Of a stretch of 64,000 nucleotides of DNA, positions 8,533 through 46,328 are shown one piece after another. The notes below the pieces were generated by a model, which saw nothing but the letters and a program-made list of their open reading frames with translations, had not been told where the DNA came from and made no database searches. A program made the position numbers and the translations under genes. The number at the start of each line of letters is the position of its first letter. Position 1 is the first letter of the stretch. The stretch comes from Escherichia coli (lineage in GTDB: Bacteria > Pseudomonadota > Gammaproteobacteria > Enterobacterales > Enterobacteriaceae), in the NCBI RefSeq assembly GCF_003019035.1, contig NZ_CP027447.1, one strand, 5' to 3'.

Positions 8533-10626
8533 TCAACTCAACGCCCCCATAATCTTCAACTCCAGCTCGTCCGGCACTTCGTTATACGACAGCACATGCA
8601 GCCCCGGCGCAAACAATCTCGCATAGCGCGCCAGCAAAGGGCGCAACTGCGGTGGCACCAGCAGCACAGGGTCTTTCCCCGCCGCTTTCATCTGCTCCTT
8701 CACTTGCGGCATCGTACTCTGGAACTGGTTGAGCATATTCGGGTCAACCGGCACGCTGTCGAGCATCACTTTGCCGGCCTGTTGCGCCTGATTCACCACG
8801 TTGGTCAGCAGATTTTCCAGCTCATTATTCAGCGTATACACCGTCAGCTCCTGCTTGCGAACGAACGGATGGGTAATGCTGCGCCGCAGCGCCAGGCGCA
8901 CATCTGCCGCCAGCAGAATATGATCTTTGGTCACCGCACTACTGGCGACAAGCACGGTGGCGATGGTGACGATATCGCGCAGGGAAACGCCTTCAGTCAG
9001 CAGCGCCCGGTACACTTTCAGCAACTGGCTGTAATTCAGCGCCGCGCTCAAATCCTCCGCCAGGCGCGGTGCCATCGACGACAAACGGTTATGCAGCTGA
9101 GTAATATCGTCATAGTTAAACAAATCAGGAATATAGCTGCGCACAATCTTATTCACATGTGTGGCAATTACGCTGGCGCTGTCGATCACCTGATACCCCA
9201 TATTCAGCGCCTTCGCCTTCTGCGCGGGCTGGATCCAGGTGACCGGCATCCCATATGCCGGGTCATTCCCCAGTACGCCGTCAATCTCGCCGTAGGTTTC
9301 GCTGGAGGGCAGGGCCATCAGTTTATCCGCCGGAATATCCGCTTCATCAGCCTTAATGCCGTTGATGAAAATGGCGTACTGGCTGGGCTTGAGACGGAAG
9401 TTTTCCCGAATACGGATCTCCGGCAGCAGCACGCCGTTACCGTCGGATATCACCTGCCGCACGCCGCGAATCCGCTGGGTGAGCGGGTTCCCCTGCGCTT
9501 TGTCCACCAGCGCCACCAGCTTGTAGCCGAGGCTTAAGCTGATGGGCTCGATCAGCGGAATGGTTTCCCAACTGACCTGTTGCTCGCTGGTTTCGGTGAT
9601 GGTTCGGGTCAGCGTTTCGAGGCTTTTCTCCTCCGCCTCCGCCGCCTGCGGGCGTTTGCTCATCCGCCAGCCGGTAAAGCCAAGCAGGGCGCTGAACAGC
9701 AAAAATGGCAGATGCGGCATCCCCGGCACCACCGCCAGCACAAACATGATCCCGGTGGCGGTGTAGAGCACCGACGGACTTGCCAGCAGCTGGTGGCGCA
9801 CGTCATGGGCGATATCGCCGTTGTCGCTGACGCGGGTGACGATAATTGCCGCCGCGGTGGAGAGCAGCAGGGACGGGATCTGCGCCACCAGCCCGTCGCC
9901 GATGGTCATCAGCACATATTGCTGGAAGGCGGCGTCGGCGCTCAGGTTGTATTTGAAGATCCCGATACAGACGCCGCCGATCAGGTTGATCGCCAGAATC
10001 ATCATCCCGGCGATGGCATCGCCGCGCACAAACTTCGATGCCCCGTCCATCGCGCCGTAGAAATCGGCCTCGCTGGCAACATCTTTACGCCGGGTTTGCG
10101 CCTGCGCCTGGTTGATCAATCCGGCGTTAAGATCGGCGTCAATCGCCATCTGCTTGCCGGGCATCGCGTCCAGGGTAAAGCGGGCAGAAACCTCGGAAAT
10201 ACGCTCGGCCCCTTTGGTGACGACGATAAAGTTGATGATCATCAGGATGATAAACACCACAAAGCCGACGACAAAGTTGCCGCCAATCACCACCTGACCA
10301 AATGACTCAATCACCTTACCCGCCGCGCCTGCGCCGAGATGCCCGTGCAGCAGCACCACGCGCGTAGAAGCAACGTTAAGCGTCAGGCGCATTAGGGTGG
10401 TGATCAGCAAAATGGTCGGGAACAGGCTGAATTCCAGCGGTCGTTTCGCCGACACCGCCACCAGCAGCACCATCACCGCCAGCACAATGTTGAAGGTGAA
10501 CAGAATATCCAGCAACGCAGGCGGCAGCGGCAGAATAACCATCGCCAGAATACACAGGATCACCAGCGGCACGCCGAGATTGCCGCCGCGCAGCAGCGCG
10601 AGGAACGATTTAGTTGTTTTCGCCAT
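8533..10626 (-). CDS. lfhA: Flagellar export apparatus protein FlhA homologue
   Basis: 697-aa ORF; N-terminal TM region and FHIPEP motifs. Confidence 0.9.
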   Translation of the reverse strand: MAKTTKSFLALLRGGNLGVPLVILCILAMVILPLPPALLDILFTFNIVLAVMVLLVAVSAKRPLEFSLFPTILLITTLMRLTLNVASTRVVLLHGHLGAGAAGKVIESFGQVVIGGNFVVGFVVFIILMIINFIVVTKGAERISEVSARFTLDAMPGKQMAIDADLNAGLINQAQAQTRRKDVASEADFYGAMDGASKFVRGDAIAGMMILAINLIGGVCIGIFKYNLSADAAFQQYVLMTIGDGLVAQIPSLLLSTAAAIIVTRVSDNGDIAHDVRHQLLASPSVLYTATGIMFVLAVVPGMPHLPFLLFSALLGFTGWRMSKRPQAAEAEEKSLETLTRTITETSEQQVSWETIPLIEPISLSLGYKLVALVDKAQGNPLTQRIRGVRQVISDGNGVLLPEIRIRENFRLKPSQYAIFINGIKADEADIPADKLMALPSSETYGEIDGVLGNDPAYGMPVTWIQPAQKAKALNMGYQVIDSASVIATHVNKIVRSYIPDLFNYDDITQLHNRLSSMAPRLAEDLSAALNYSQLLKVYRALLTEGVSLRDIVTIATVLVASSAVTKDHILLAADVRLALRRSITHPFVRKQELTVYTLNNELENLLTNVVNQAQQAGKVMLDSVPVDPNMLNQFQSTMPQVKEQMKAAGKDPVLLVPPQLRPLLARYARLFAPGLHVLSYNEVPDELELKIMGALS

Positions 10627-11749
10627 CCAGTTTAAGCACCTCTTTGGGAATGGAAATATGTCTGTTCAGAGCCGGGCGCGGCTGTGCGCCCTCGCGCCAG
10701 TGTTTCATTTGCAGGACGTAGGTCAGAACGTGGGCGATAGCCCGGTAAAGCTGAAACGGAATTTGCTGGTTCACCTGGGTGGTGTAGTAAACCGAGCGCG
10801 CCAGTCGCGGGAACTCGACCACTTCCACCTGATTCTCAGTGGCGACCTGGCGAATATAGAGGGCGATTTCATCGGTGCCTTTCGCCACCACAAACGGCGC
10901 GGCGGCGCGAGACTGGTCATACTGCAACGCCACGGCGTAGTGGATCGGGTTGGTGATCACCACGTTGGCTTTCGGCACCACTTTGCGAATTTGCCCCATC
11001 GCCAGTTGCCGTTGCAGCCGCCGCACGCGCGCCTTCACTTCCGGCTTGCCTTCCTGATTTTTGTACTCTTCTTTCAGCTCCTGTTTGGTCATCTTCAGCC
11101 CTTTGGTAAACAGGGCTTTCGCCAGCGGTACGTCGATCAGCGCGAAGAAGATAAACAGGATGACAAAGTTGCGCATCACGCTGGCGTAGAGCGATAAACC
11201 ATCGTTAATTGCCAGTTTGAACGGCAGCGCCTGCAGGCCGAGAAAGGCGGCAAAGTTATTGCGCAGGCTTACCCACAGCATCACCAGTATCACCACCGAC
11301 TTCACCGTCATCTTTCCCGTTTCCGCCAGATGCTCGCTGGAAAACAGCCGCCCAATCCCTTTTAACGGACTGATTTTGCTGAAATCAGGGAGGATTTTTT
11401 TCGGCAGAAACAGCCAGCCGCCAGGCACCAGCGAGGAGAGCAGTGCGGCGGCGGGCATCGGCAGCAAGGTAAGAATAAACTTGCCGAGAATTAACAGGTG
11501 ATGGCGCAGAAACTGGCCGATCACATCCGGGTTATTAATCTCCTGCGCGTACTGATGCACGCTGATAAAACTCTCGCGCACAAAATCGGCATACCACGGG
11601 AAGCTGCTGGAGATCACCACAAATGCCGCAAACAGGCTCGCCGCCAGCCCCATATCCTTCGAGCGCGGCAGTTGCCCCTCTTCACGCGCTTTACGCAGCT
11701 TTTGCGCCGAGGGTTTCTCTGTTTTTTCTTCGCTGCTGCTATCCGCCAT
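10610..11749 (-). CDS. lfhB: Flagellar export apparatus protein FlhB homologue
   Basis: 379-aa ORF; N-terminus ...EKTEKPSAQKLRKAREEGQ... and NPIH(Y) autocleavage-type motif. Confidence 0.9.
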   Translation of the reverse strand: MADSSSEEKTEKPSAQKLRKAREEGQLPRSKDMGLAASLFAAFVVISSSFPWYADFVRESFISVHQYAQEINNPDVIGQFLRHHLLILGKFILTLLPMPAAALLSSLVPGGWLFLPKKILPDFSKISPLKGIGRLFSSEHLAETGKMTVKSVVILVMLWVSLRNNFAAFLGLQALPFKLAINDGLSLYASVMRNFVILFIFFALIDVPLAKALFTKGLKMTKQELKEEYKNQEGKPEVKARVRRLQRQLAMGQIRKVVPKANVVITNPIHYAVALQYDQSRAAAPFVVAKGTDEIALYIRQVATENQVEVVEFPRLARSVYYTTQVNQQIPFQLYRAIAHVLTYVLQMKHWREGAQPRPALNRHISIPKEVLKLDGENN

Positions 11750-12521: not shown

Positions 12522-12522
12522 C

Positions 12523-12795: not shown

Positions 12796-12797
12796 AA

Positions 12798-14762: not shown

Positions 14763-14940
14763 GGCTTACTTTCTCTGCTGTAATGGTATGGGTGTTTCTG
14801 TGCACGCAAATCCGGCTGTGACACAAGGTGAGGTATTAAATAGAGGGGGAGTGAAAGGGGCAAATTATTAATAGGGTGAAAAAATAATTAATCGATTAAT
14901 TGCTTAATGGGAGTTATTTTCGCCAATCAGTCTGCGGTCT

Positions 14941-14981
14941 GTCCCCTCGCCCCATCCGGGGAGAGGGTTAGGGTGAGGGGG
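14941..14981. repeat. GC-rich hairpin repeat unit in the lfiM-lafK divergent intergenic region
   Basis: CCCCTCGCCCCATCCGGGGAGAGGGTTAGGGTGAGGGG; same family as 5193 and 8476. Confidence 0.6.
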
Positions 14982-15134
14982 CATCACAGATGTCGAAATT
15001 AACAGTATTAATATCTAACTAATTGTTTACCATCAAATAATATTTTTATTATCGTTTAATTCGAACTTGTTAATCCCGCCGGTGATACGCTTCAGAACAT
15101 CCTGTTTTCTGTCGCTACTGATATCGTTCACCCT

Positions 15135-16121
15135 ATGTCTGAACTTATTGCAACTGCCGCTTCCAGCATTAACGCTTTTACTCTGGCAAAGCGTGTCGCC
15201 GCCTTTAACGTGCCGGTGCTCATTCAGGGCGAAACCGGTGCGGGCAAAGAGTGCGTGGCGAAATATATTCACACAGTCGCCTTTGGTGAAAATGAAAGCG
15301 CACCCTATGTCGGCGTGAACTGCGCGGCGATCCCGGAAAATATGCTGGAATCTACCTTATTTGGCTACGACAAAGGCGCATTTACCGGCGCAATTGCCAG
15401 CGTGCCAGGAAAAATGGAACTGGCGAATAACGGCACCTTATTACTCGATGAAATTGGCGATATGCCGCTGGCGTTACAGGCCAAAATATTACGCGTATTG
15501 CAGGAACAACAGGTTGAGCGATTAGGCAGCAACCGACAAATTAAACTCAATTTTCGCCTGATTGCCTGTACCAATAAAAACCTTGAACAGGAAGTTGCCA
15601 CCGGGCGTTTTCGTGAAGATCTCTATTATCGTCTGGCGGTGATTCCTATTACCATGCCGCCGCTGCGTGAACGTCTGAACGATATTATTCCGCTGGCAGA
15701 GTCATTTATTAAAAAATACTCCACGGTGCTGGTGAAAAATATCACCCTGTCGGAATCTACCCGCCGGGCGCTGCTCAATTACCGCTGGCCCGGCAACGTG
15801 CGCCAGCTCGAAAACGCCATTCAGCGTGGAATGATTTTAAATCGCGACGGCGTGATTTTCCCGGATGCCTTAGGCCTGCCGGAAACAGACGTTGCCGACC
15901 ACAGTGAACTGCAATGGCCTGTTCAGCCTGCCGTCCACATTGCCGAAACCAGCGATTTAGGCCAGCACGGACGAAGTGCGCAATATCAATATATCGCCGA
16001 CCTGATGCGTAAATATCAGGGCAACCGCAGCAAAATTGCCGACCTGTTAGGCATTACCCCGCGCGCACTGCGCTATCGACTGGCCTCCATGCGCAAGCAC
16101 GGTATCGAAGTTTTCTCCTGA
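15135..16121 (+). CDS. lafK: Sigma54-dependent transcriptional activator lacking an N-terminal receiver/regulatory domain (AAA+ core plus C-terminal HTH only)
   Basis: Walker A GETGAGKE 30 aa from the start, GAFTGA motif, C-terminal HTH (...IADLLGITPRALRYRL...); no in-frame upstream extension. Confidence 0.8.
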   Translation: MSELIATAASSINAFTLAKRVAAFNVPVLIQGETGAGKECVAKYIHTVAFGENESAPYVGVNCAAIPENMLESTLFGYDKGAFTGAIASVPGKMELANNGTLLLDEIGDMPLALQAKILRVLQEQQVERLGSNRQIKLNFRLIACTNKNLEQEVATGRFREDLYYRLAVIPITMPPLRERLNDIIPLAESFIKKYSTVLVKNITLSESTRRALLNYRWPGNVRQLENAIQRGMILNRDGVIFPDALGLPETDVADHSELQWPVQPAVHIAETSDLGQHGRSAQYQYIADLMRKYQGNRSKIADLLGITPRALRYRLASMRKHGIEVFS

Positions 16122-16135
16122 CCCGGAAGTTAAAA

Positions 16136-16477
16136 ATGAGCATTACCACAATCAACAGCACCATGCAGGCGCAAATCATGCAGGACGTGCAGCGGATGCA
16201 GGCCAACGCCCAGGCACCGGTGCTGCCCGCCATGACCTTCAGTTCCACCGACCCGGACGTTTCGTTTAACCGCATTATGAGCGGTGCGCTCGGTCATGTT
16301 GACCAGTTCCAGCAGGTGGCGGAGCAGCAGCAAACGGCTGTCGACACGGGCAAAAGTGATGACCTGGCAGGGGCGATGATCGCCAGCCAGCAGGCGTCGC
16401 TCTCGTTCTCCGCGCTGGTTCAGGTGCGCAACAAAATCGCCACCGGATTTAACGATCTGATGAGTATGTCGATCTAA
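16136..16477 (+). CDS. lfiE: Flagellar hook-basal body protein FliE homologue
   Basis: 113-aa ORF preceding the MS-ring gene. Confidence 0.8.
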   Translation: MSITTINSTMQAQIMQDVQRMQANAQAPVLPAMTFSSTDPDVSFNRIMSGALGHVDQFQQVAEQQQTAVDTGKSDDLAGAMIASQQASLSFSALVQVRNKIATGFNDLMSMSI

Positions 16478-16481
16478 CCCT

Positions 16482-24660: not shown

Positions 24661-24770
24661 GCCCTCACCCCGACCCTCTCCCACAGGGAGAGGGAGAAAA
24701 CCAGCGCCGATTTTAACACCGTGCTCGATCGGTTCCCTCGCCCCTTTGAGGAGAGGGTTAGGGGGAGGGG
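24661..24770. repeat. Two GC-rich hairpin repeat units (24661-24696 and 24735-24770) between the transferase gene and the upstream 309-aa gene
   Basis: CCCTCTCCC-ACA-GGGAGAGGG and CCCTCGCCCC-TTTG-AGGAGAGGGTTAGGGGGAGGGG; same family as 5193. Confidence 0.6.
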
Positions 24771-24790: not shown

Positions 24791-25720
24791 TCACGTCAGC
24801 AGCGAAAATGCTGACAGCAGCGGCTCTGCCGCACATAACGACTGGAGCTGCTGGCGAATCGCCGCAGCATTTTCACTCTCTCGCCAGCGTTCAAACACCG
24901 CAAAAAGGGCGAAAATATCCTCCTTCCGCAGCGGTGAACCATCCAGCGTCCATAAACTGATTAACGTGCGGATGAGATAAAAATCACACACCAGCGGGCA
25001 ATAATCTGCTCCGTCTGCCTGCCCAATCACGTCGTGATAAACGCGGTAAATCAGCCAGTTGCGCATCATCCACGGCGCGGCGGCAAAATGCTGTTGCCAG
25101 GTGGTTTGCCACTGCACCTTAAGCTGCTGTTGCAACAAAGCTTCGCTGTTGGCGTCATGCAACGTCAGCAAAGTCACCTGCAACGGTAGCGAGGCTTTGC
25201 GCGGGCTTTCCGGCAAAATCGACCAGTCAAACGCAAAACTCCCGAGCAGCGTCACCAGTTGGCGCGCCAGTTGTGGCACGGGTGGGAGTTGGGCGAACTG
25301 TGCCTGTAGCGTGCCTTTTTGTGCATGATCCCCCAGCGCCTGTGGCAGCGTTGTCAAGCGGGCAAGAATATCTCCGTCTCTGCCCGGCATTTTACTGGCG
25401 CGGGAGAGCAAAATCCCGACGGCATACAGGGAAAGCTCCGGGGTTAAATCGGGGAGCGTAAGGGTACTCAAAATTATCTGGTTGACTATCGCATCGCGCG
25501 CGGATAGCTCGGCGGCATTGTCTTCCACAGGGCGGTAGGTGAGCTGTAAATCAAAGGCCCTGGCATCGTTGAGCACCGCTTTGCAACTTTCAATATCGGT
25601 CAATGCCAGGCTCTGGCGAATCTCATTCTTCCAGACCTTGCGGACGTACAAAGGCGAATCGGGATATTGCGTCATAAAATTGCGCACGTATTCCGGTTCG
25701 TAACATTCAATAAAACTCAT
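24791..25720 (-). CDS. Hypothetical protein (309 aa) in the Flag-2 variable/modification region
   Basis: Long ORF co-oriented with lfgN and the transferase gene; no motif I can assign; start chosen at the first ATG (ORF-track start is TTG). Confidence 0.6.
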   Translation of the reverse strand: MSFIECYEPEYVRNFMTQYPDSPLYVRKVWKNEIRQSLALTDIESCKAVLNDARAFDLQLTYRPVEDNAAELSARDAIVNQIILSTLTLPDLTPELSLYAVGILLSRASKMPGRDGDILARLTTLPQALGDHAQKGTLQAQFAQLPPVPQLARQLVTLLGSFAFDWSILPESPRKASLPLQVTLLTLHDANSEALLQQQLKVQWQTTWQQHFAAAPWMMRNWLIYRVYHDVIGQADGADYCPLVCDFYLIRTLISLWTLDGSPLRKEDIFALFAVFERWRESENAAAIRQQLQSLCAAEPLLSAFSLLT

Positions 25721-25847: not shown

Positions 25848-26276
25848 TTATTCCTGGTACAGAAAATCTGCTTCGCCGCCTAAAAAAGACTGAATAAATT
25901 CATACTGGCGAATCAACAGCTCGCCGTTTTTGTCGTTGTAGGCTTTGCAGCGTTCCGCTTTTTGCTCAAGGCGTTGCCACAACTGTTGTGCTGCTGCTTT
26001 TTGCACAGCCGGAAGCCAGGCAAAAACCTGCGCCAGACCGTCACGATTTACACTGACATTGAGCATTTTCAGCAGGCTGTGTCGCTGATGGCTATGCCCA
26101 TGCAACTGCTCATAGTGATGTGTTATCTCGTCGTTTACCGCCAGCAGATCTTCGCTGGCGCGGCGAATCATGCAGATCCGCTGACGCTGGAGAAGTTCGC
26201 GCAGGGAATCGTACAGTGCGTCGTCGTCACGAATGCCCTGCAACAACGCCTTCACCTGTTGTAACCGGATACTCAC
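25848..26276 (-). CDS. lfgN: Flagellar export chaperone FlgN homologue
   Basis: 142-aa helical ORF downstream of the flgM homologue. Confidence 0.75.
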   Translation of the reverse strand: MSIRLQQVKALLQGIRDDDALYDSLRELLQRQRICMIRRASEDLLAVNDEITHHYEQLHGHSHQRHSLLKMLNVSVNRDGLAQVFAWLPAVQKAAAQQLWQRLEQKAERCKAYNDKNGELLIRQYEFIQSFLGGEADFLYQE

Positions 26277-26288: not shown

Positions 26289-26567
26289 TTAGTTCTGGAA
26301 AAAACTCAGCATGTCGCTGGCTAACTGTTCGGTGTCCACTTGCAGGCTGCCGGACGCCAGCATCGCTTGCATTTGCGCCACTTTGTCGCTGTCGATATCG
26401 CTCTCTTGCTGGTCGTTCAGCGTTTGCTGGGCAGACTGCAATCCCGCCTGGGTAATGTCGTCGGCGCTCAGCGTCGTGGCGGTGGTCGCCGTGCTTTTGC
26501 GCGGCTGACTGGAGCCTGCCATTGTGGCTGTCGGGCGATTGCCTGGCATCGTCGGGGTGATTTTCAT
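26289..26567 (-). CDS. lfgM: Anti-sigma28 factor FlgM homologue
   Basis: 92-aa ORF with FlgM-like C-terminal helices (...KVAQMQAMLASGSLQVDTEQLASDML...). Confidence 0.8.
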   Translation of the reverse strand: MKITPTMPGNRPTATMAGSSQPRKSTATTATTLSADDITQAGLQSAQQTLNDQQESDIDSDKVAQMQAMLASGSLQVDTEQLASDMLSFFQN

Positions 26568-27804: not shown

Positions 27805-28236
27805 ATGTCATTTACTGATATCTATCAGATTTCCGGCTCGGCGATGACGGCGCAAACGCTACGTCTGAATACCGTCGCCAGTAACCTGGCGAATGCTAAT
27901 GCACCTGCCGGCAGCGAGGCGCAGGCGTATAAAGCGCGCAGCCCGGTGTTTGCGGCGGTGTATCACCACAGCTTGCTGGTGGGTACACATCGTCATGCCA
28001 TTGATGGTGCCAGCGTGCAGGTGCAGGACGTGCTGCAAACCGGCGGGGCGGTGAAACGCTATGAACCGCATTCGCCGCTGGCGGATGCTAACGGGGATGT
28101 CTGGTATCCCGACGTCAACGTGGTGGAACAGATGGCGGACATGATGTCGGCCTCGCGCGATTTTGAAACCAATGTCGATGTGCTCAACAACGTGAAAAGT
28201 ATGCAGCAAAGCCTGCTGAAACTGGGAGAAGCCTGA
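27805..28236 (+). CDS. lfgC: Flagellar basal-body rod protein FlgC homologue (uninterrupted)
   Basis: 143-aa ORF with rod-protein N-terminal (...ASNLANANA...) and C-terminal motifs. Confidence 0.85.
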   Translation: MSFTDIYQISGSAMTAQTLRLNTVASNLANANAPAGSEAQAYKARSPVFAAVYHHSLLVGTHRHAIDGASVQVQDVLQTGGAVKRYEPHSPLADANGDVWYPDVNVVEQMADMMSASRDFETNVDVLNNVKSMQQSLLKLGEA

Positions 28237-28949
28237 TGAATACCCTGGCGCTGAATGCGCAATCGCCGCAGCCGACCGCCACGGCGGAAAGCAACAACGT
28301 GGCGGCCAGCGACACGCAAAGTAGCAGCGATAGCTCGCCCGTCGATACCTTCCTGACGCTGTTTGTCGCTGAGATCCAAAACCAGGACCCGACCGACCCG
28401 ACCGACGCCACCGAATATATCGACCAGCTTTCGTCAATGGCGCAGGTGGCGATGATGGAAGAGATGAGCGTGCAGGCGAATACCAACGCGGTGTTGATGA
28501 GCAACATTCAGGTGATGGCGCTCGGCAACCTGGTGGGCGACGACATTATGGTGCAGACCACCGCCTTGCAGGTGAGTGACCAGACCATTAACGGTCGCGC
28601 CACGCTTGACGACGCCTGTACCACCGCCGATCTCCACTTTACCGATGCCGCAGGCGATGACTATACGGTGTCGCTGATCCCGGAAGGGAGTTCGTCCGTC
28701 GGGCCAGGCCAGGTGGATTTCTCGGTGAATCCCGCGGATTACGGTATCCCGCCGGGTGATTACGACGTCTCGGTGGTCACCAACACCGGGGAAGAAGAGG
28801 TGCCGATTGAAGTCTCCGGCGAAGTGGAAGATGTGCGCATCCCGCTCGACGGCAGCTCTCCGGTGCTCAATGTTGCAGGTGTAGGCGAAGTGCCGTTCAC
28901 CATGATTAGCCAGTTTGGCGTACCCGATGCCGACAGTGATGTGGCGTAA
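28236..28949 (+). CDS. lfgD: Flagellar hook cap/assembly protein FlgD homologue
   Basis: 237-aa ORF between the flgC and flgE homologues. Confidence 0.8.
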   Translation: MNTLALNAQSPQPTATAESNNVAASDTQSSSDSSPVDTFLTLFVAEIQNQDPTDPTDATEYIDQLSSMAQVAMMEEMSVQANTNAVLMSNIQVMALGNLVGDDIMVQTTALQVSDQTINGRATLDDACTTADLHFTDAAGDDYTVSLIPEGSSSVGPGQVDFSVNPADYGIPPGDYDVSVVTNTGEEEVPIEVSGEVEDVRIPLDGSSPVLNVAGVGEVPFTMISQFGVPDADSDVA

Positions 28950-33950: not shown

Positions 33951-34060
33951 CCCCTCACCCTAACCCTCTCCCCAAAGGGGCGAGGGGACCGATTGAGCGC
34001 GGAGGTGAATATGGCGCAGGTTTTCGCCCTCTCCCTGTGGGAGAGGGCCGGGGTGAGGGC
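33951..34060. repeat. Two GC-rich hairpin repeat units (33951-33987 and 34026-34060) between lfgJ and lfgK
   Basis: CCCTCTCCCC-AAA-GGGGCGAGGGG and CCCTCTCCC-TGT-GGGAGAGGGCCGGGGTGAGGG; same family as 5193. Confidence 0.6.
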
Positions 34061-37457: not shown

Positions 37458-37547
37458 TGTTATTGAAAATCAATCAAATGAGGCTGTTGTAAAAAATCAT
37501 TTCAGTGCAGAATATGCTATAACTCTACGGGTTAAAAAAGGAATGAA

Positions 37548-37691
37548 ATGACCACTCTCAAGCAACTGATGGATAAGCAAAGCCCTGAAAGTCGTAGGCG
37601 AATAATAAAAAAAGCAGAACGAATCCGGCAAACTATCATTAATAAAAAGCTAGAGTTACCAATAACTAAAACTATCAGCAATTCCGATTGA
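37548..37691 (+). CDS. Possible small ORF (47 aa, basic)
   Basis: ATG with AAGGA RBS 5 nt upstream; MTTLKQLMDKQSPESRRRIIKKAERIRQ...; AT-rich with rare codons, so may not be translated. Confidence 0.25.
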   Translation: MTTLKQLMDKQSPESRRRIIKKAERIRQTIINKKLELPITKTISNSD

Positions 37692-37710
37692 TTTCATTCG
37701 GGATTTTCGT

Positions 37711-37746
37711 TGGCCGGATAAGACGCGTTTAGCGTCGCATCCGGCA
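37711..37746. repeat. REP element
   Basis: GGCCGGATAAGACGCGTTTAGCGTCGCATCCGGCAT. Confidence 0.8.
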
Positions 37747-37760
37747 TATATTGGCACTCG

Positions 37761-38603
37761 TCAGCATTTCTGCACAGTATTTAACAACTTCTCTAAATTC
37801 TGATACATCGCGCGATTAATATCGCTGTTCTGCCAGCCTTCCACATTAAAAGTTAATTGCCAGCTACCATTGCACTGGTTGCGCAGAACAATATCACTTT
37901 CCAGTCGGTTACGAACATATTTATAATAAGTTGTCATTGTCATATTATGCGCTGACAATAAATTATCGAGTTTGTCTTTTCCTGGTTCGAGGGTTTGTGA
38001 CAGTAACGGTACGGAATTATTTTCCTTTCCAGAACTAAGATGAAATATTTTTATTCTTGGACTGTTAATTGACTCTTTTACCAGTTGCGGGGCGTCAGGT
38101 GTACTTTTCAAGTGTGAATACCCCACGGTCGAGCCAATAAATATAACAGCCGCGGTCAACGCTAACCCCATCAGTCCTTTATGTTTTTTTCTAACTGGTA
38201 CAGGCGGTGTTGTCGAAGATATCTCTTCTGACACAGTTTCCTGTACCTGGTCGGTAATCATCAGCTTTTCCGCAGGCGATAACTCCGGCAAAGACACATA
38301 CTCTTTATTGCACAAGTAACCTTTCTTCGGAATTGTTTTAATAATGTTCTGTTGTTTGCCATCATCGTCGATAGCAACGCGTAACGCATGGATCGCCGTC
38401 GGCAGGCTGTTACCGCCGACTATGCGGTTCTTCCATACTTCGGCACATAAATAAGATCGCGATAAAACCACATCGGCATTTTTTGCTAATGTTTCCAGCA
38501 AAATAAAATGGTATTCGCCGAGACGACGTGTTTCACCCGTTTCGCAATGTATTAAGGCATTAAGCGACGGGTCCATCCGCCAGTTGTTGATAATAATACT
38601 CAT
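37761..38603 (-). CDS. lafZ: ToxR/CadC-like membrane-anchored transcriptional regulator (N-terminal winged-helix domain, one TM helix, periplasmic C-terminal domain)
   Basis: Winged-helix core ...LSRSYLCAEVWKNRIVGGNSLPTAIHALRVAID...; hydrophobic segment GLMGLALTAAVIFIGSTVGY; gene is markedly AT-rich. Confidence 0.75.
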   Translation of the reverse strand: MSIIINNWRMDPSLNALIHCETGETRRLGEYHFILLETLAKNADVVLSRSYLCAEVWKNRIVGGNSLPTAIHALRVAIDDDGKQQNIIKTIPKKGYLCNKEYVSLPELSPAEKLMITDQVQETVSEEISSTTPPVPVRKKHKGLMGLALTAAVIFIGSTVGYSHLKSTPDAPQLVKESINSPRIKIFHLSSGKENNSVPLLSQTLEPGKDKLDNLLSAHNMTMTTYYKYVRNRLESDIVLRNQCNGSWQLTFNVEGWQNSDINRAMYQNLEKLLNTVQKC

Positions 38604-39089: not shown

Positions 39090-40004
39090 ATGTTATCTAT
39101 TAACACCAATAACGCCTCAATGGCCGCCGTTAATGCAATCAGCAAAAGCAGCTCTTCTCTGTCTACATCTATGGAACGCCTGGCAACGGGTAACCGGATT
39201 AACTCTTCTGCCGATGACGCAGCGGGCAAACAAATTGCTAACCGTCTGACAGCACAGTCCAGCGGTATGGGTGTGGCGCTGAGCAACATCAATGATGCCA
39301 CCGCGATGCTGCAAACCGCCGACAGCATGTTCGACGAAATGTCTGATGTGCTGGGTCGTATGAAAGACCTGTCAACTCAGGCAGCGAACGGCACCTACAG
39401 CGACGACGATCTACAGGCGATGCAGGACGAATACGACGAACTGGGTCAGCAGATGTCTGACATGCTGCAAAACACCACTTACGGCGGCACCAACCTGTTC
39501 GGTGTTTCCGGTACCAGCAACACCGGTACTGACGGTCTGTTCCAGAGCGCAGTAACTTTCCAGGTGGGCGCGGAATCTTCCGACACCATGACCGTGAATA
39601 TTTCAAGCCAGCTGAATACCCTGGTGACGGATCTTTCTGCTATCAGCAACTCCTTCAGTGCGGATCAGGCTGACACCACTGGCACCGCAGGCGTTTCTGG
39701 CGGTACTGAGCTGACTGCGTCTGGCTCGGCTAACCAGATGATTACCAGCATTTCGACCGCGATGGATGATGTTTCGCAGATCCAATCCAAGCTGGGTGCG
39801 TCTATTAACCGTCTGAACGACACTGCCAACAACCTGACCAGCATGCAGGACAACACCGAAGTCGCTATCGGTAACATTATGGATACCGACTACGCGACGG
39901 AAGCGTCCAACATGACTAAACAGCAGGTGCTGATGCAGACCGGCATCACCATGCTGAAACAGTCCAACAGCATGTCCAGCATGGTTTCCAGCCTGCTGCA
40001 GTAA
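39090..40004 (+). CDS. lafA: Lateral flagellin
   Basis: 304-aa ORF with flagellin N-terminus (MLSINTNNASMAAVNAI...RLATGNRINSSADDAAG) and C-terminus (...MTKQQVLMQTGITMLKQSNSMSSMVSSLLQ); AGGAG RBS. Confidence 0.9.
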   Translation: MLSINTNNASMAAVNAISKSSSSLSTSMERLATGNRINSSADDAAGKQIANRLTAQSSGMGVALSNINDATAMLQTADSMFDEMSDVLGRMKDLSTQAANGTYSDDDLQAMQDEYDELGQQMSDMLQNTTYGGTNLFGVSGTSNTGTDGLFQSAVTFQVGAESSDTMTVNISSQLNTLVTDLSAISNSFSADQADTTGTAGVSGGTELTASGSANQMITSISTAMDDVSQIQSKLGASINRLNDTANNLTSMQDNTEVAIGNIMDTDYATEASNMTKQQVLMQTGITMLKQSNSMSSMVSSLLQ

Positions 40005-40045: not shown

Positions 40046-40162
40046 ACGAACAACACCGCCTGCGGGCGGTGTTGTGCTTTCTGCGGCAGGCGTATTTCCG
40101 CCAGACCGGAAATGGCTTTTCCGCCTGTTTTTCAATCTATTGATTCTTCACATAAAAAATAT

Positions 40163-40177
40163 TGGCACGCCTTTTGC
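40163..40177 (+). promoter_or_regulatory. Sigma54 (-24/-12) promoter upstream of lafB
   Basis: TGGCAC-GCCTT-TTGC, about 30 bp upstream of the lafB start. Confidence 0.7.
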
Positions 40178-40209
40178 CAATAACCTGACATCGTTATCCG
40201 GAGTCATCA

Positions 40210-41526
40210 ATGATCAACCCAAGAACCATTGCGCAAGAAATCGCCTATGCGGATGTTGCCACTCAGGCGGCAAACTTGCAGGAGAAGCAGAGCGAGCTGG
40301 ATGCTGAAAGCAGCGGCCTGGACTCGCTCAGCTCAGCGTTGAGCGATTTTCAGAGCGCCGTTGACGCGCTGAACAGCGATACTGACGGCCCGGTGACGTT
40401 TGCCGCCACCAGCAATAATGACTCGGCGACCGTTTCCGCTAACTCGCAGGCACAGGCGGGAAGCTACTCGTTTTTCGTTGAGCAACTGGCGCAGGGGCAG
40501 CAAACCACGTTCAGTATGGGCGACGACGCCTTTTCCGCCACCGGCACTTTTGAACTGACGATGGGCGACAGCACCATGGATATTGATCTGTCGGCGGCGG
40601 ATCAAAACGGTGACGGCGACGGTTTTATCGACGCCAGTGAACTGGTGAATGCGATTAACGACTCTGATGACAATCCGGGCGTGTCGGCGGCACTGGTAAA
40701 AACCGACGGCACCACCACCATTATGCTCACCTCCGATAGCACCGGGGCGCAGAGCGCATTTTCGGTGAGCGTAACGGGGCATGACACCAGCAACGATAGC
40801 GCCAGCGCGCCCGTTGCCACGGATGTTTCCTCCGCTCAGGACGCGATTATTCATCTCGGCAGTGCCACAGGGCCTGAGATCACCAACAGCAGCAATACGT
40901 TTGATGATGTGATCCCCGGTGTCACCATGACTTTCACCGAAGTCAGCGATTCTGACAGCGACCTCACTACCTTTAACATTAGCGAAGATTCCAGCGCCAG
41001 CCAGGAGAAAGTGCAGACCTTTGTCGATGCCTATAACACCCTGATCGATACGGTTGATTCGCTAACCACCCACGGTGATGACAGTACCAGCGCCGGGGTA
41101 TTTGCAGGCGACGCAGGACTCAGTTCACTGGCGAACCAGCTCGATGATATCGCCCATGCCAGCTACAACGGGGTATCGATTGTTGACTATGGCATCACGC
41201 TTGATTCTCACGGCCACTTACAGATTGACTCCGACCAGTTCAACGACGAAATGGCGAAAAATCCTGACGGTCTGACCTCTATTTTCGTTGGCGACAACAG
41301 CATGGTGGCACAGATGGACGACCTGATTAACACCTACACGGACTCCAGCAACGGCATCATCACCCTGCGCCAGCAGAACATTGACGATCAGATGAGCAAA
41401 ATTCAGGACGAAGGCGATCAGCTTACTGATACCTATAACGCCAACTACGACCGTTATCTCGAGGAGTACACCAACACGCTGGTCGAGGTGTACACCATGA
41501 AAGCCAGCATGGCGGCATTCGCGTAA
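40210..41526 (+). CDS. lafB: Flagellar filament cap protein FliD homologue
   Basis: 438-aa ORF immediately after the flagellin gene. Confidence 0.8.
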   Translation: MINPRTIAQEIAYADVATQAANLQEKQSELDAESSGLDSLSSALSDFQSAVDALNSDTDGPVTFAATSNNDSATVSANSQAQAGSYSFFVEQLAQGQQTTFSMGDDAFSATGTFELTMGDSTMDIDLSAADQNGDGDGFIDASELVNAINDSDDNPGVSAALVKTDGTTTIMLTSDSTGAQSAFSVSVTGHDTSNDSASAPVATDVSSAQDAIIHLGSATGPEITNSSNTFDDVIPGVTMTFTEVSDSDSDLTTFNISEDSSASQEKVQTFVDAYNTLIDTVDSLTTHGDDSTSAGVFAGDAGLSSLANQLDDIAHASYNGVSIVDYGITLDSHGHLQIDSDQFNDEMAKNPDGLTSIFVGDNSMVAQMDDLINTYTDSSNGIITLRQQNIDDQMSKIQDEGDQLTDTYNANYDRYLEEYTNTLVEVYTMKASMAAFA

Positions 41527-41548
41527 CTCAGAAGGAATATCCCTAAAG

Positions 41549-41941: not shown

Positions 41942-41945
41942 GACG

Positions 41946-42257
41946 ATGGAAAAACAACGCAGGCAACTTTTCGCGCTGGTTGAAGCGATGAACGAAGCCC
42001 TCGACAAGCAACGCTGGCGACGCCTTCCGGCACTGCATCAGCAGTTGATGCGCCAGTTTCACGATTACGTGGCGGCGGAAACCGACGCGGCGCAGTTGTG
42101 TGCGGTGAAGGCGCAGCTGTACGGCGCGTTTAATGCCCTGATTAAACGGCGCGAGCAGCGTGCAGAAGTGTTGACGGCGCGTATGGAACAGCATCAGCGG
42201 CATCAGGAAGGCGTACTGGCCTACTCAATTGTTAATTTACTTTCGGAGAAGTCATGA
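41946..42257 (+). CDS. lafD: FliT-like flagellar chaperone (small helical protein)
   Basis: 103-aa ORF following the fliS homologue; assignment by position. Confidence 0.55.
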   Translation: MEKQRRQLFALVEAMNEALDKQRWRRLPALHQQLMRQFHDYVAAETDAAQLCAVKAQLYGAFNALIKRREQRAEVLTARMEQHQRHQEGVLAYSIVNLLSEKS

Positions 42258-43312
42258 ATCCGGCATTGCTTGCCACGCTCGGAACACTTGCGGAAACGGC
42301 GTCGCTGAAAGCGGATATTTTACCGCCGGTGAGTAGTGAAAACGCGCCCGCGTTTACCCTGCCGAAAATGGCGGTCGCGGCGGTGGCGGAGCGCGTTCAT
42401 AGCGCAAAAACCAGTCAGCAACAGGCGACGCGCCCGCAGGAGAACGATCCGGTGGCGATGCAGGCGCTAATGGCGCTGTTACTTCCGCAACCTGCCGCGC
42501 CGCATCAGGTCACGCCGCAGCCGCGAAACGTCGCAACATCGCCGGTTATCCAGCAATTGACGAAAGCGGTGGTGCAAAACGCGCCGCAACGCCCGACGCA
42601 GCAGCAGGAATTCACGCCGTTGCCGCCGCAGTTGCAGGAGCTGATCAGTCAGTTGCCGCAGGCGAAACCCGAACAGCAGGCCAGACTGGCAATTTACGCC
42701 AGTGAAGATTTACATGCCATTGCGCCGACGCAGCCGCGCGTCTCAACACAGCCAGCTCGCCCGAAACCTGAACTAACCCGTGTGAACGCGCGCCCGCAGG
42801 TCGAGCGTAAAACGGAAAAAGTGCCGGACAGCGAACCGGTTATTGCGCGTGCGGTGTTGCAGGTTAAGACGCCGGATCTGGTCAGCGAACATCAGGAGAT
42901 TGTCGCCAAACCAGCCACGCTTTCGATGGACGAACTGGGCGAAAAACTGACGACGCTGTTGAAAGATCAGATCCACTTTCAGCTCAACAAACAACAGCAG
43001 ATCTCCACCATCCGTCTCGATCCACCGTCGCTTGGCAAGCTCGAGATCGCCGTACAACTCGACAACGGCAAACTGATGGTGCACATCGGCGCGAACCAAA
43101 GTGAAGTTTGCCGCGCGTTACAGCAGTTTAGCGACGATCTCCGCCAGCATCTGACGGCGCAAAATTTTATGGAGGTGAACGTACAGGTTTCCTCCGAAGG
43201 GCAGTCGCAGCAACAACAGTCGGGCCATCAGCAGGAAGAGGTGAGTGCCGCCTTACAGCTTGATGATGCGCCTCAATTTCAACAGAACGAATCCGTTTTG
43301 ATCAAAGTGTAA
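42254..43312 (+). CDS. lafE: Hook-length control protein FliK homologue
   Basis: Pro/Gln-rich central region and FliK-like C-terminal domain (...IRLDPPSLGKLEIAVQLDNGKLMVHIGAN...). Confidence 0.8.
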   Translation: MNPALLATLGTLAETASLKADILPPVSSENAPAFTLPKMAVAAVAERVHSAKTSQQQATRPQENDPVAMQALMALLLPQPAAPHQVTPQPRNVATSPVIQQLTKAVVQNAPQRPTQQQEFTPLPPQLQELISQLPQAKPEQQARLAIYASEDLHAIAPTQPRVSTQPARPKPELTRVNARPQVERKTEKVPDSEPVIARAVLQVKTPDLVSEHQEIVAKPATLSMDELGEKLTTLLKDQIHFQLNKQQQISTIRLDPPSLGKLEIAVQLDNGKLMVHIGANQSEVCRALQQFSDDLRQHLTAQNFMEVNVQVSSEGQSQQQQSGHQQEEVSAALQLDDAPQFQQNESVLIKV

Positions 43313-43319
43313 AGGCAAT

Positions 43320-43787: not shown

Positions 43788-43806
43788 TCACCAGGCGGAT
43801 ATAAAC

Positions 43807-44526: not shown

Positions 44527-44538
44527 AGTGAAGAAATC

Positions 44539-45402: not shown

Positions 45403-45404
45403 GC

Positions 45405-46328
45405 ATGAGAAAGACGGGCAACCGCCGCGAGCGTGGGGCAAAAACCACCATCGTCCGGCGGCAGATCAAAAAGAATCATGCCGGGCACCACGGCGGGGCG
45501 TGGAAGGTAGCGTTCGCCGACTTTACCCTGGCGATGATGGCGCTATTTATGACGCTGTGGATTGTCAATAGCGTCAGTAAATCCGAGCGTGAAAGCATTA
45601 TCGCCGCGCTGCACGGGCAGTCGATTTTTAACGGTGGTGGGCTGTCGCCGTTAAATAAAATCAGCCCGTCTCATCCGTCAAAACCTGCCACCGTGGCGGT
45701 GCCGGAAGAGACGGAGAAAAAAGCGCGCGACGTCAACGAGAAAACGGCGCTGCTGAAGAAGAAATCCGCCACCGAGCTTGGTGAGCTGGCAACCAGCATC
45801 AACACCATTGCCCGTGATGCGCATATGGAAGCGAATCTGGAGATGGAGATTGTCCCGCAGGGATTACGCGTGCTGATTAAAGACGACCAGAATCGCAATA
45901 TGTTCGAACGCGGCAGCGCGCAGATTATGCCGTTCTTTAAAACGCTGCTGGTGGAGCTCGCGCCAGTGTTCGACTCGCTCGATAACAAAATTATTATTAC
46001 CGGGCATACCGATGCGATGGCCTACAAAAACAATATCTACAACAACTGGAACCTTTCGGGTGACCGCGCGCTTTCGGCTCGTCGGGTGCTGGAAGAGGCA
46101 GGAATGCCGGAAGATAAAGTGATGCAGGTGAGCGCAATGGCGGACCAGATGCTGCTGGACGCGAAAAATCCGCAAAGCGCGGGCAACCGGCGCATTGAGA
46201 TTATGGTGCTGACTAAAAGCGCGTCCGATACGCTGTATCAATACTTTGGTCAGCATGGGGATAAAGTGGTGCAGCCGCTGGTGCAAAAGCTGGATAAGCA
46301 GCAGGTGCTTTCGCAGCGAACGCGTTAA
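45405..46328 (+). CDS. lafU: Flagellar motor stator protein MotB homologue (OmpA-like C-terminal domain)
   Basis: N-terminal TM plug region and OmpA-like domain (...TGHTDAMAYKNNIYNNWNLSGDRALSARRVL...); start at MRKTGNRRE. Confidence 0.85.
   Translation: MRKTGNRRERGAKTTIVRRQIKKNHAGHHGGAWKVAFADFTLAMMALFMTLWIVNSVSKSERESIIAALHGQSIFNGGGLSPLNKISPSHPSKPATVAVPEETEKKARDVNEKTALLKKKSATELGELATSINTIARDAHMEANLEMEIVPQGLRVLIKDDQNRNMFERGSAQIMPFFKTLLVELAPVFDSLDNKIIITGHTDAMAYKNNIYNNWNLSGDRALSARRVLEEAGMPEDKVMQVSAMADQMLLDAKNPQSAGNRRIEIMVLTKSASDTLYQYFGQHGDKVVQPLVQKLDKQQVLSQRTR

What the first reader, a model, noticed from the sequence alone, without database searches (positions are those of the whole stretch)
8533..46328. 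Complete, apparently intact Flag-2 lateral flagellar system between yafL and dinB
All expected structural, export, motor and regulatory genes are present as uninterrupted ORFs of normal length. The flgC homologue is also uninterrupted; I recall it being frameshifted in the reference Flag-2 strain. K-12 retains only remnants at this site. The rayT gene that K-12 carries after yafL is absent here; a 98-bp spacer with one GC-rich hairpin repeat takes its place. A second, possibly functional flagellar system has consequences for motility on surfaces and for immune recognition.
Basis: partly seen in the sequence, partly recalled or inferred. Interest (0 to 1): 0.55.

Follow-up and report, generated by a model that had tools for sequence, protein, structure and literature searches.

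The report
Intact E. coli Flag-2 lateral flagellar locus
The window carries a complete, uninterrupted copy of the second (lateral, "Flag-2") flagellar gene cluster of E. coli between yafL and dinB, which is real but already well described and present in about a quarter of sequenced E. coli strains.

Summary
Window 8533-46328 holds all 39 conserved Flag-2 genes plus three flagellin-modification genes. All 42 have a start codon, no internal stop, and a full-length match to every E. coli 042 Flag-2 protein. lfgC is intact; strain 042 carries a 2-bp insertion there. rayT is absent, replaced by a 97-bp spacer with one G+C-rich hairpin. Consensus sigma-54 promoters precede lfgB and lafB. dN/dS against 042 is 0.067, and LafA has 29 synonymous and 0 non-synonymous changes, so the cluster is under strong constraint.

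It is not new. About 23% of 5,426 complete E. coli genomes carry the cluster. SMS-3-5 and E7-1N7 are also fully intact. Intact lfgC is already published for EC958, PCN033, W and Crooks. Function is untested here, and the EC958 copy was silent in the laboratory.

One by-product is more interesting. The nearest relative, SCU-301, is 99.97-99.99% identical in the flanks but lacks window 10237-45562, with exactly the K-12 scar junction. The same codon-level junction occurs in Citrobacter, Kluyvera, Atlantibacter and Cedecea-like genomes. There the remnant arms are open reading frames; where a same-genus intact lfhA was available (Citrobacter, Atlantibacter, Cedecea) it is their closest full-length relative. 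This suggests a recurrent precise deletion, or selected remnants.

The parts
8436..8532 (.). yafL-lfhA spacer (97 bp) in place of the rayT/REP segment of K-12 and 042; G+C-rich hairpin CCCTCGCCCC-AAA-GGGGCGAGGG at 8479-8501
   Evidence: (MFE -35.4 kcal/mol, z -4.2). The same short spacer is found in only 127 of 5426 genomes.
8533..10626 (-). lfhA (FlhA export gate), 697 aa
   Evidence: TIGR01398 772 bits; 99.6% aa identity to 042; intact
10610..11749 (-). lfhB (FlhB), 379 aa
11739..12521 (-). lfiR (FliR), 260 aa
12523..12795 (-). lfiQ (FliQ), 90 aa
12798..13550 (-). lfiP (FliP), 250 aa
13547..13918 (-). lfiN (FliN), 123 aa
13911..14762 (-). lfiM (FliM-like), 283 aa
   Evidence: weak FliM match; named by orthology to 042
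15135..16121 (+). lafK, sigma-54 enhancer-binding activator without a receiver domain, 328 aa (Walker A GETGAGKE, GAFTGA loop, C-terminal HTH)
16136..16477 (+). lfiE (FliE), 113 aa
16482..18128 (+). lfiF (FliF MS ring), 548 aa
18106..19116 (+). lfiG (FliG), 336 aa
19120..19830 (+). lfiH (FliH), 236 aa
19823..21160 (+). lfiI (FliI ATPase), 445 aa
   Evidence: NF005535 773 bits
21163..21597 (+). lfiJ (FliJ), 144 aa
21600..22004 (+). cytidylyl/adenylyltransferase-family gene (variable region 1), 134 aa
22141..24612 (-). 823-aa glycosyltransferase (variable region 1); 22500-23500 is 8-9% divergent from E7-1N7 and SMS-3-5 and about 7% from 042
24791..25720 (-). lafV (FliB-like flagellin lysine-N-methylase), 309 aa; near-consensus sigma-54 site CGGCAC-N5-TTGC at 25770-25755
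25848..26276 (-). lfgN (FlgN chaperone), 142 aa
   Evidence: named by orthology
26289..26567 (-). lfgM (anti-sigma-28 FlgM), 92 aa
26648..27385 (-). lfgA (FlgA), 245 aa
27415..27429 (+). consensus sigma-54 promoter TGGCAC-N5-TTGC, 38 bp upstream of lfgB
   Evidence: the same site is reported for PCN033 (PMC4578781)
27467..27802 (+). lfgB (FlgB rod), 111 aa
27805..28236 (+). lfgC (FlgC rod), 143 aa, uninterrupted; 042 has a 2-bp insertion after nt 45
   Evidence: TIGR01395 130.6 bits against a cut-off of 102; alignment
28236..28949 (+). lfgD (FlgD), 237 aa
28972..30174 (+). lfgE (hook FlgE), 400 aa
30174..30911 (+). lfgF (FlgF), 245 aa
30990..31775 (+). lfgG (FlgG), 261 aa
31858..32523 (+). lfgH (L ring), 221 aa
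32538..33638 (+). lfgI (P ring), 366 aa
33638..33937 (+). lfgJ (rod-binding FlgJ N-domain only, no muramidase domain), 99 aa
34143..35519 (+). lfgK (FlgK), 458 aa
35534..36463 (+). lfgL (FlgL), 309 aa
36480..37457 (+). lafW (Flag-2-specific putative hook-associated protein), 325 aa; no NCBIfam match
37761..38603 (-). lafZ (CadC/ToxR-like winged-helix regulator), 280 aa
39090..40004 (+). lafA lateral flagellin, 304 aa, 100% identical in protein to 042
   Evidence: NF033376 667 bits against a cut-off of 440; 29 synonymous and 0 non-synonymous changes vs 042
40163..40177 (+). consensus sigma-54 promoter TGGCAC-N5-TTGC, 33 bp upstream of lafB
40210..41526 (+). lafB (FliD cap), 438 aa
41549..41941 (+). 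lafC (FliS), 130 aa
41946..42257 (+). lafD, 103 aa (no family match; orthologue of 042 LafD)
42254..43312 (+). lafE (FliK-like hook-length control), 352 aa
43320..43787 (+). lafF (FliL), 155 aa
43807..44526 (+). lafS (sigma-28 family), 239 aa
   Evidence: NF009091 446 bits
44539..45402 (+). lafT (MotA stator), 287 aa
   Evidence: TIGR03818 374 bits
45405..46328 (+). lafU (MotB-like stator), 307 aa
   Evidence: NF005273 580 bits
10234..10236 (.). left endpoint (GAT) of the canonical Flag-2 deletion, at lfhA codon 130/131, next to the palindrome TGATGATCATCA
45560..45562 (.). right endpoint (GAT) of the canonical deletion, at lafU codon 52/53 at the end of the MotB-type TM helix; SCU-301 and K-12 lack window 10237-45562

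Best explanation
Window 8533-46328 is an ordinary, complete and uninterrupted allele of the E. coli Flag-2 locus. Flag-2 is a second flagellar system, homologous to the lateral (laf) systems, inserted between yafL and dinB. Shown here: it encodes a full export apparatus (LfhAB, LfiPQR, LfiHIJ), the MS/C ring (LfiFGMN), rod, hook and L/P rings (LfgA-L), a short flagellin LafA with its cap and chaperone (LafBC), a MotAB-type stator (LafTU), flagellin-modification genes, and its own regulators (LafK, LafS, LfgM, LafZ). Inferred from the Vibrio and Aeromonas laf paradigm: once made, LafK (an enhancer-binding protein that lacks a receiver domain) drives sigma-54 promoters in front of lfgB, lafB and probably lafV. 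Completion of the hook-basal body then exports LfgM and frees LafS for late genes (lafA, lafTU). The genes are under strong purifying selection, so the system is most likely used in some natural niche. It is probably silent under standard laboratory conditions. I put the chance that it can build working flagella at about 0.5.
For: Integrity of all 42 genes. Family assignments with full-length profile matches, many above NCBIfam cut-offs: FlhA, FliI, FlgC, FlgE, FlgG, FlgH, FlgI, FlgK, LafA, LafS, MotA, LafU. Synteny with 042, SMS-3-5 and E7-1N7. Exact sigma-54 consensus sites upstream of lfgB and lafB, and a near-consensus site upstream of lafV. LafK has Walker A, GAFTGA and an HTH. dN/dS is 0.067 over 41 genes at dS 0.17, and LafA shows 29 synonymous and 0 non-synonymous changes. 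The cluster is present in 1217-1259 of 5426 complete genomes. Literature: PMC6993521, PMC4578781, PMC3032704, PMC4637896.
Against: No expression or assembly data exist for this strain. In ST131 EC958, an intact Flag-2 gave no LafA and no motility at 28 or 37 C (PMC4637896). No sigma-54 site scoring 8 or more of 11 was found in the lfiM-lafK intergenic region, which precedes the lfiM and lafK operons, and no convincing sigma-28 site was found before lafA with the E. coli consensus. Authors of the E. coli W genome note that motY and maf-5 homologues, which are needed in Vibrio and Aeromonas, are missing from E. coli clusters (PMC3032704). The large regulatory spacers are A+T-rich (35-42% G+C), which would fit silencing.
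Confidence: 0.9

Rival explanations
1. The cluster is structurally intact but is a silenced or cryptic locus on its way to loss. The ORFs are open because the lineage has only recently stopped using it. The canonical deletion seen in its closest relative SCU-301 would then be its usual fate.
For: EC958 Flag-2 is not expressed (PMC4637896). 75% of complete E. coli genomes carry the deletion scar. SCU-301 is 99.97-99.99% identical in 23 kb of flanks and has already lost the cluster. The regulatory spacers are A+T-rich.
Against: dN/dS of 0.067 at dS 0.17, and an invariant LafA protein across divergent lineages, show long-term constraint rather than drift. There is no intermediate decay in this window.
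Confidence: 0.3
2. The intact cluster in this strain was regained. A scar-bearing ancestor like SCU-301 re-acquired the 35-kb interior by homologous recombination, using the lfhA' and lafU' arms as landing pads.
For: The flanks and both arms are identical to SCU-301 right up to the junction. The interior is a fine-scale mosaic, 0-9% divergent per 500 bp from other E. coli alleles. Flag-2 is a known recombination region in ST131 (PMC4637896).
Against: Both crossovers would have to fall within about 80 bp (left) and about 150 bp (right) of the junction for the donor types sampled. Divergence shows no step at 10236 or 45562. A simple deletion in SCU-301 explains the same data.
Confidence: 0.15
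3. The cluster is maintained for something other than motility, such as adhesion, protein secretion through the flagellar T3SS, or signalling.
For: Constraint is strong, yet no motility phenotype has been shown in E. coli (PMC3032704, PMC4637896). De Maayer et al. discuss multifunctionality (PMC6993521).
Against: Stator, switch, hook and filament genes are all equally constrained, which is what a rotating organelle predicts.
Confidence: 0.08

Closest known systems
Flag-2 locus of enteroaggregative E. coli 042 (Ren et al. 2005, J Bacteriol 187:1430; NC_017626.1 284682-323159)
   Same: Same chromosomal site, same gene order, and every protein matched full length at 89-100% identity. The variable-region-1 content is the same (cytidylyltransferase, glycosyltransferase, lafV).
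   Different: 042 has a 2-bp insertion that frameshifts lfgC. It also has rayT plus REPs after yafL, and a RelE/HTH toxin-antitoxin pair between lafW and lafZ, all absent here. Synonymous divergence is high: dS 0.17, against 0.083 for the adjacent dinB gene.
Intact Flag-2 loci of E. coli SMS-3-5, E7-1N7, EC958, PCN033, W and Crooks
   Same: Uninterrupted genes including lfgC (PMC4637896, PMC4578781, PMC3032704). E7-1N7 also has the 97-bp rayT-less spacer. The sigma-54 sites before lfgB and lafB match those reported for PCN033.
   Different: The window's allele is only 97.4-98% identical overall to the best of 1,259 genomes, and it is a different mosaic. SMS-3-5 has two extra hypothetical genes in variable region 1.
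Lateral flagellar (laf) systems of Vibrio parahaemolyticus and Aeromonas hydrophila
   Same: Same regulatory parts list (LafK/sigma-54, LafS/sigma-28, anti-sigma factor), a short flagellin and a dedicated MotAB-type stator. NF038071 lat_flg_LafA_2 also matches LafA.
   Different: Those systems are experimentally shown to drive swarming and have MotY or Maf-5 accessory genes that E. coli clusters lack (PMC3032704). The E. coli LafK has no receiver domain.
lfhA'/lafU' (fhiA/mbhA) deletion scar of E. coli K-12
   Same: The scar arms correspond to window 8533-10236 and 45561-46328. The junction nucleotides are identical in K-12 and in the window's near-clone SCU-301.
   Different: The window retains the 35,326 bp that the scar lacks.

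Membership tests
Enterobacterial Flag-2 locus (Ren 2005; De Maayer 2020) | Single locus in the yafL-dinB region, bounded by lfhA and lafU | tested here: met
   yafL 7686-8435, lfhA 8533-10626, lafU 45405-46328, dinB 46399-47454
Enterobacterial Flag-2 locus (Ren 2005; De Maayer 2020) | 39 conserved genes in three syntenic clusters: lfhAB-lfiRQPNM-lafK-lfiEFGHIJ; lfgNMABCDEFGHIJKL-lafW; lafZ-lafABCDEFSTU | tested here: met
   All 39 are present in the 042 order and full length, plus 3 variable-region-1 genes (PMC6993521)
Enterobacterial Flag-2 locus (Ren 2005; De Maayer 2020) | Lateral-type flagellin LafA | tested here: met
   NF033376 lat_flg_LafA_1, 667 bits against a cut-off of 440, over residues 1-304 of 304
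Enterobacterial Flag-2 locus (Ren 2005; De Maayer 2020) | Own regulators: sigma-54 activator LafK, sigma-28 LafS, anti-sigma LfgM | tested here: met
   sigma-54 consensus sites
Enterobacterial Flag-2 locus (Ren 2005; De Maayer 2020) | All genes free of frameshifts, stops and IS or prophage insertions (the 'intact' claim) | tested here: met
   The locus is 37,796 bp against 38,478 bp in 042. The absent lafW-lafZ toxin-antitoxin pair accounts for about 480 bp of the difference; the rest was not itemised.
Functional lateral flagellar system (as in Vibrio and Aeromonas) | Surface- or viscosity-induced expression, peritrichous filaments, swarming that depends on laf genes | not testable with these tools
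   Only indirect evidence: dN/dS 0.067. There is a contrary laboratory result for EC958 (PMC4637896).
Functional lateral flagellar system (as in Vibrio and Aeromonas) | Sigma-28-type promoter in front of the flagellin gene | tested here: inconclusive
   No match better than 3 mismatches to TAAAG-N15-GCCGATAA on the + strand upstream of lafA. The LafS consensus may differ.

The most novel reading that the evidence does not exclude
The most novel reading concerns how this locus is lost, not the intact locus itself. Flag-2 appears to be removed again and again by one and the same precise 35-kb deletion. It joins lfhA codon 131 head-to-head to lafU codon 53 through a shared AT/GAT. It seems to have arisen independently in Escherichia, Citrobacter, Kluyvera, Atlantibacter and Cedecea-like lineages. 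Either a sequence-determined deletion hot spot is at work (the left breakpoint lies in the GATC-centred palindrome TGATGATCATCA), or a rare microhomology deletion is repeatedly selected because the two remnant ORFs ('pseudogenes' lfhA and lafU of K-12) are still useful. The window and SCU-301 would be a near-isogenic before/after pair.
Probability: 0.45. Interest if true: 0.6.

Novelty: already known. Interest (0 to 1): 0.25.

Why it matters
As handed over, the finding adds one more intact Flag-2 allele to more than a thousand already in public complete genomes. Its practical value is as a candidate strain for finally showing whether E. coli Flag-2 builds working lateral flagella, which remains an open question. 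The by-product could matter more. If the canonical deletion is truly recurrent and precise across genera, this locus is a natural model for deterministic large deletions. It would also mean that the K-12 'pseudogenes' lfhA and lafU need re-examination.

Tried and rejected
- **Sigma-28 promoter before lafA, lafT, lfgM and lfgK.** A search with the E. coli consensus found nothing convincing. Window-wide hits were not clearly above shuffles (22 found against 15.7 expected).
- **Sigma-54 sites for the lfiM and lafK operons.** No site scored 8 or more of 11 in the 372-bp lfiM-lafK intergenic region.
- **Ren et al. 2005 (PMC545627).** The paper is not held in the library, so its statements are cited only through later papers.
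- **Significant inverted or direct repeat at the deletion endpoints.** An unbiased local alignment of the two regions is not above chance (score 12, p about 0.1). A junction-centred similarity of 19/33 nt in coding sense was found only a posteriori, by hand count, and reflects two hydrophobic TM helices.
- **Horizontal spread of a single scar between genera.** Rejected, because the innermost nucleotides next to the junction are taxon-specific.
- **Derivation of the SCU-301 scar from ST648-type or K-12-type scars.** Rejected, because SNPs lie at +7 and at -11 or -80. Derivation from an IAI39-type scar cannot be rejected: it is identical from -82 to +147.
- **RayT as the agent of deletion.** Unlikely for SCU-301, because no rayT is annotated beside the locus in that genome, nor in the window. 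This could not be checked genome-wide.
- **An intact Kluyvera lfhA close to the Kluyvera scar.** The search found only cluster representatives at 93% identity or less.

Full report
**1. What is in the window**

The window is E. coli chromosome. Its gene order is an ISEc1 transposase end, yafV, ivy, fadE, lpcA, yafJ, dpaA, yafQ-dinJ, yafL, the Flag-2 cluster, dinB-yafP, rtcB-prfH, pepD, gpt, frsA, crl, phoE, proBA, tRNA-Thr, then an integrase island. This comes from mapping onto strain SCU-301 plus the tRNA and family scans.

The six-frame ORF list already shows a continuous run of flagellar-sized ORFs from 8533 to 46328.

**2. Check of the observation**

I took the annotated Flag-2 proteins of E. 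coli 042 and searched them against the window with tblastn.
- Every protein gives a single full-length alignment at 89-100% identity, with at most a 3-aa indel.
- The exceptions are the two 042 toxin-antitoxin genes between lafW and lafZ, which are absent here, and lfgC, which is frameshifted in 042.
- Explicit translation of 42 genes at the orthologous start codons gives ATG or GTG starts, lengths divisible by three, and no internal stops.

NCBIfam profiles independently name the products with end-to-end matches. They cover:
- FlhA, FlhB, FliR, FliQ, FliP, FliN, FliE, FliF, FliG, FliH, FliI, FliJ, FlgM and FlgA;
- FlgB through FlgL, and LafA (667 bits against a cut-off of 440);
- FliD, FliS, FliL, a FliA-family sigma factor, MotA and LafU.

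LafW, LafD and LfgN have no NCBIfam match and are named by orthology only. LfiM has only a weak FliM match. The total is the 39 conserved genes of De Maayer et al. (PMC6993521) plus three variable-region-1 genes: a cytidylyltransferase-family gene, an 823-aa glycosyltransferase, and the FliB-like methylase LafV.

On lfgC: a three-way alignment shows that 042 has a 2-bp insertion after nucleotide 45. The window and E7-1N7 share an identical intact allele. PGAP flags the 042 gene 'frameshifted', and three papers state the same (PMC4578781, PMC3032704, PMC4637896).

On K-12 and rayT: K-12 has yafL, rayT, lfhA', lafU', then dinB.
- The spacer contains a perfect hairpin, CCCTCGCCCC-AAA-GGGGCGAGGG, at 8479-8501.
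- The spacer is unrelated to the REP/rayT segment of K-12 and 042.
- It is a minority arrangement. Only 127 of 5,426 genomes span it, among them SCU-301, E7-1N7 and FDAARGOS_497.

**3. How it most likely works**

Shown: LafK is a 328-aa enhancer-binding protein that starts directly with the AAA+ domain (Walker A GETGAGKE, GAFTGA, C-terminal HTH). Exact TGGCAC-N5-TTGC sites lie 38 bp before lfgB and 33 bp before lafB, and a one-mismatch site lies before lafV. A sigma-28-family factor (LafS) and an anti-sigma factor (LfgM) are encoded.

Inferred from the Vibrio and Aeromonas laf systems: the hierarchy runs from LafK/sigma-54, to the hook-basal body, to export of LfgM, to LafS-dependent lafA and stator genes.

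Not found: sigma-54 sites for the lfiM and lafK operons, and a canonical sigma-28 promoter for lafA.

Evidence that the system is maintained:
- Against 042, the 41 comparable genes show dS 0.169, dN 0.011 and dN/dS 0.067.
- LafA has 29 synonymous and no non-synonymous differences.
- The same LafA protein accession is annotated in 042, SMS-3-5 and E7-1N7.
- LafA keeps R, L and Q at positions that, from my own knowledge of FliC, are the TLR5-contact residues (LGRMKDLSTQ). This is an inference, not a test.

Function itself is untested. EC958, with an intact cluster, made no LafA in the laboratory (PMC4637896).

**4. Comparison with what is known**

Megablast of the two halves of the locus finds at least 80% coverage in 1,259 and 1,217 of 5,426 complete E. 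coli genomes. That matches the published 20-24% (PMC4578781, PMC6993521).

SMS-3-5 and E7-1N7 carry the cluster without a single pseudogene flag. EC958, PCN033, W and Crooks are published with intact lfgC. The finding is therefore an already known system in an already known state.

The only particular feature is that no complete genome has this exact allele. The best matches are 97.4-98% identical, and the locus is a fine mosaic, 0-9% divergent per 500 bp from three other intact alleles. This fits the reported recombination activity of the region (PMC4637896).

**5. What turned up on the way: the deletion**

*A near-isogenic pair.* SCU-301 matches window 1-10236 with 1 mismatch and 45557-58650 with 4 mismatches, but it lacks everything between. 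Its junction...AAAGTTGAT|TGTCAAT..., is nucleotide-for-nucleotide that of K-12. The only microhomology is GAT (GTTGAT against GTGGAT).

*Spread in E. coli.* A 300-bp probe across the junction is contiguous in 4,087 of 5,426 genomes.

*The scars are not one haplotype.*
- SCU-301's arms differ at 0 of 2,470 positions from the window's intact genes.
- They differ at 37 positions from the next-nearest scar and at about 107 from K-12.
- The ST648-type scar equals the intact SMS-3-5 allele from -1067 to +219.
- Within E. coli, transfer of a scar by a short recombination tract cannot be excluded. IAI39-type scars equal the window from -82 to +147.

*Other genera.* A degenerate pattern, and then truncated FlhA homologues, led to the same codon-level junction (lfhA Ile131 against lafU Ile53, sharing AT) in:
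- E. albertii, Citrobacter sp. MGH106 and Kluyvera ascorbata;
- Atlantibacter, two Cedecea-like genomes and a metagenome contig.

*State of the remnant arms.*
- Outside Escherichia (Citrobacter, Kluyvera, Atlantibacter, the Cedecea-like genomes and the metagenome contig) the arms examined have no in-frame stops; the E. albertii arms are decayed (see below).
- The nucleotides right next to the junction are taxon-specific, so one scar spreading horizontally does not explain the pattern.
- Where a same-genus intact allele was found, it is the arm's closest full-length relative. The Atlantibacter scar differs from an intact Atlantibacter lfhA at 16 of 1,704 nt, with the first difference 117 nt from the junction. 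The Cedecea-like arms are 97-98% identical in protein to Cedecea LfhA. The Citrobacter arm is closest to Citrobacter LfhA (96-97% protein identity). No close intact Kluyvera lfhA was found.

*Two readings remain.*
- Reading 1 is a sequence-determined hot spot. The left breakpoint lies in the palindrome TGATGATCATCA (ATGATCAT in Atlantibacter), centred on a GATC. The interior side, CTGATGATC, is conserved in four genera.
- Reading 2 is a rare microhomology deletion that is repeatedly selected, with remnants that are still under selection. Scar-versus-scar dN/dS is 0.01-0.07 (all but one pair at or below 0.04) in E. coli, and 0.039 between two Cedecea-like scars at dS 0.08-0.16.
- Against retained function: IAI39 has a 5-bp deletion, AR_0013 has a stop, and E. 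albertii has a 22-bp deletion plus a stop in the arms.

De Maayer et al. noted the lfhA-lafU deletion in 531 strains and mention direct repeats (PMC6993521). In the passages of that paper retrieved by term search I found no statement that the junction is identical across genera. I could not read Ren et al. 2005.

**6. Verdict**

Interest is low for the finding as stated. I raised it slightly because the window supplies the intact partner of a near-isogenic deletion pair, and because the deletion looks recurrent and precise.

Noticed in passing
window 10234-10236 and 45560-45562; L002 (SCU-301) 30231-30237: E. coli SCU-301 is 99.97-99.99% identical to the window over 23 kb of flanks but lacks window 10237-45562. 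Its junction is the exact K-12 junction (AAAGTTGAT|TGTCAAT). The two genomes form a near-isogenic intact/deleted pair.
   Followed up: yes
L008, L012, L013, L026-L029 compared with window 10236/45561: The same codon-level junction (lfhA Ile131 head-to-head with lafU Ile53, sharing AT) occurs in E. albertii, Citrobacter, Kluyvera, Atlantibacter, Cedecea-like genomes and a metagenome contig. The flanking nucleotides are taxon-specific. Outside Escherichia the arms are open reading frames, and where a same-genus intact allele was available it is their closest full-length relative. This points to independent origins of an identical deletion. The mechanism is unexplained.
   Followed up: partly
scar arms of L002, L003, L007, L014-L020 (window equivalents 8533-10236 and 45561-46328): The lfhA' and lafU' 'pseudogene' arms of 7 scar-bearing E. 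coli genomes have no stop in 822 codons. Between scars they show dN/dS of 0.01-0.07, in the same range as intact genes (0.01-0.08). Two other scars (IAI39, AR_0013) and E. albertii are disrupted. In E. coli the LafU' ORF gains a GTG start from the antisense strand of lfhA (MTTIKL-IVNSV...).
   Followed up: partly
window 39090-40004: LafA flagellin is identical in protein to that of 042, SMS-3-5 and E7-1N7 despite 29 synonymous differences from 042. This is the opposite of the hypervariable FliC.
   Followed up: partly
window 8533-46328, especially 22500-23500, 15000-17500 and 37000-38500: The locus is a fine mosaic relative to other intact alleles, 0-9% divergent per 500 bp. The glycosyltransferase segment is 8-9% divergent from E7-1N7 and SMS-3-5 and about 7% from 042. 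Overall dS against 042 (0.17) is about twice that of the neighbouring dinB (0.083).
   Followed up: partly
window 46399-47903: dinB overlaps yafP by 4 bp, and the yafN-yafO toxin-antitoxin pair of K-12, 042, SMS-3-5 and E7-1N7 is absent. SCU-301, IAI39, D5 and others share this arrangement.
   Followed up: partly
window 8479-8501, 24735-24757, 33964-33986 and ~14935-14985: A family of short G+C-rich palindromic repeats (CCCTCGCCCC-N3-GGGGCGAGGG and variants) sits in several intergenic spacers inside and beside Flag-2. From memory it resembles the E. coli BoxC repeats.
   Followed up: partly
window 37458-37760: The lafW-lafZ spacer (variable region 2) is 303 bp here, 58 bp in E7-1N7, and 783 bp with a RelE/HTH pair in 042. 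The window version keeps a 44-aa stretch 57% identical to the 042 HTH antitoxin, and a canonical REP at about 37700-37750.
   Followed up: partly
window 58558-64000: tRNA-Thr (CGT) at 58558-58633 is followed by a 387-aa tyrosine integrase (58648-59811, -) and further ORFs, including a weak PAPS-reductase-like match. Identity with SCU-301 ends at 58650, so this is an island or prophage integrated at thrW that SCU-301 lacks.
   Followed up: partly
window 1-434: The window starts inside the 3' end of an ISEc1 (ISAs1-family) transposase gene upstream of yafV, as in SCU-301, where a type VI secretion/Rhs region lies further upstream.
   Followed up: no
window 7686-8435 (yafL); L012, L013, L021, L023, L026-L032: An NlpC/P60 (C40) peptidase gene like yafL lies directly next to lfhA or lafU in every genus examined, whether the locus is intact or a scar. 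LfgJ lacks a muramidase domain. YafL may therefore be the peptidoglycan hydrolase associated with this flagellar system, but this is speculation.
   Followed up: no
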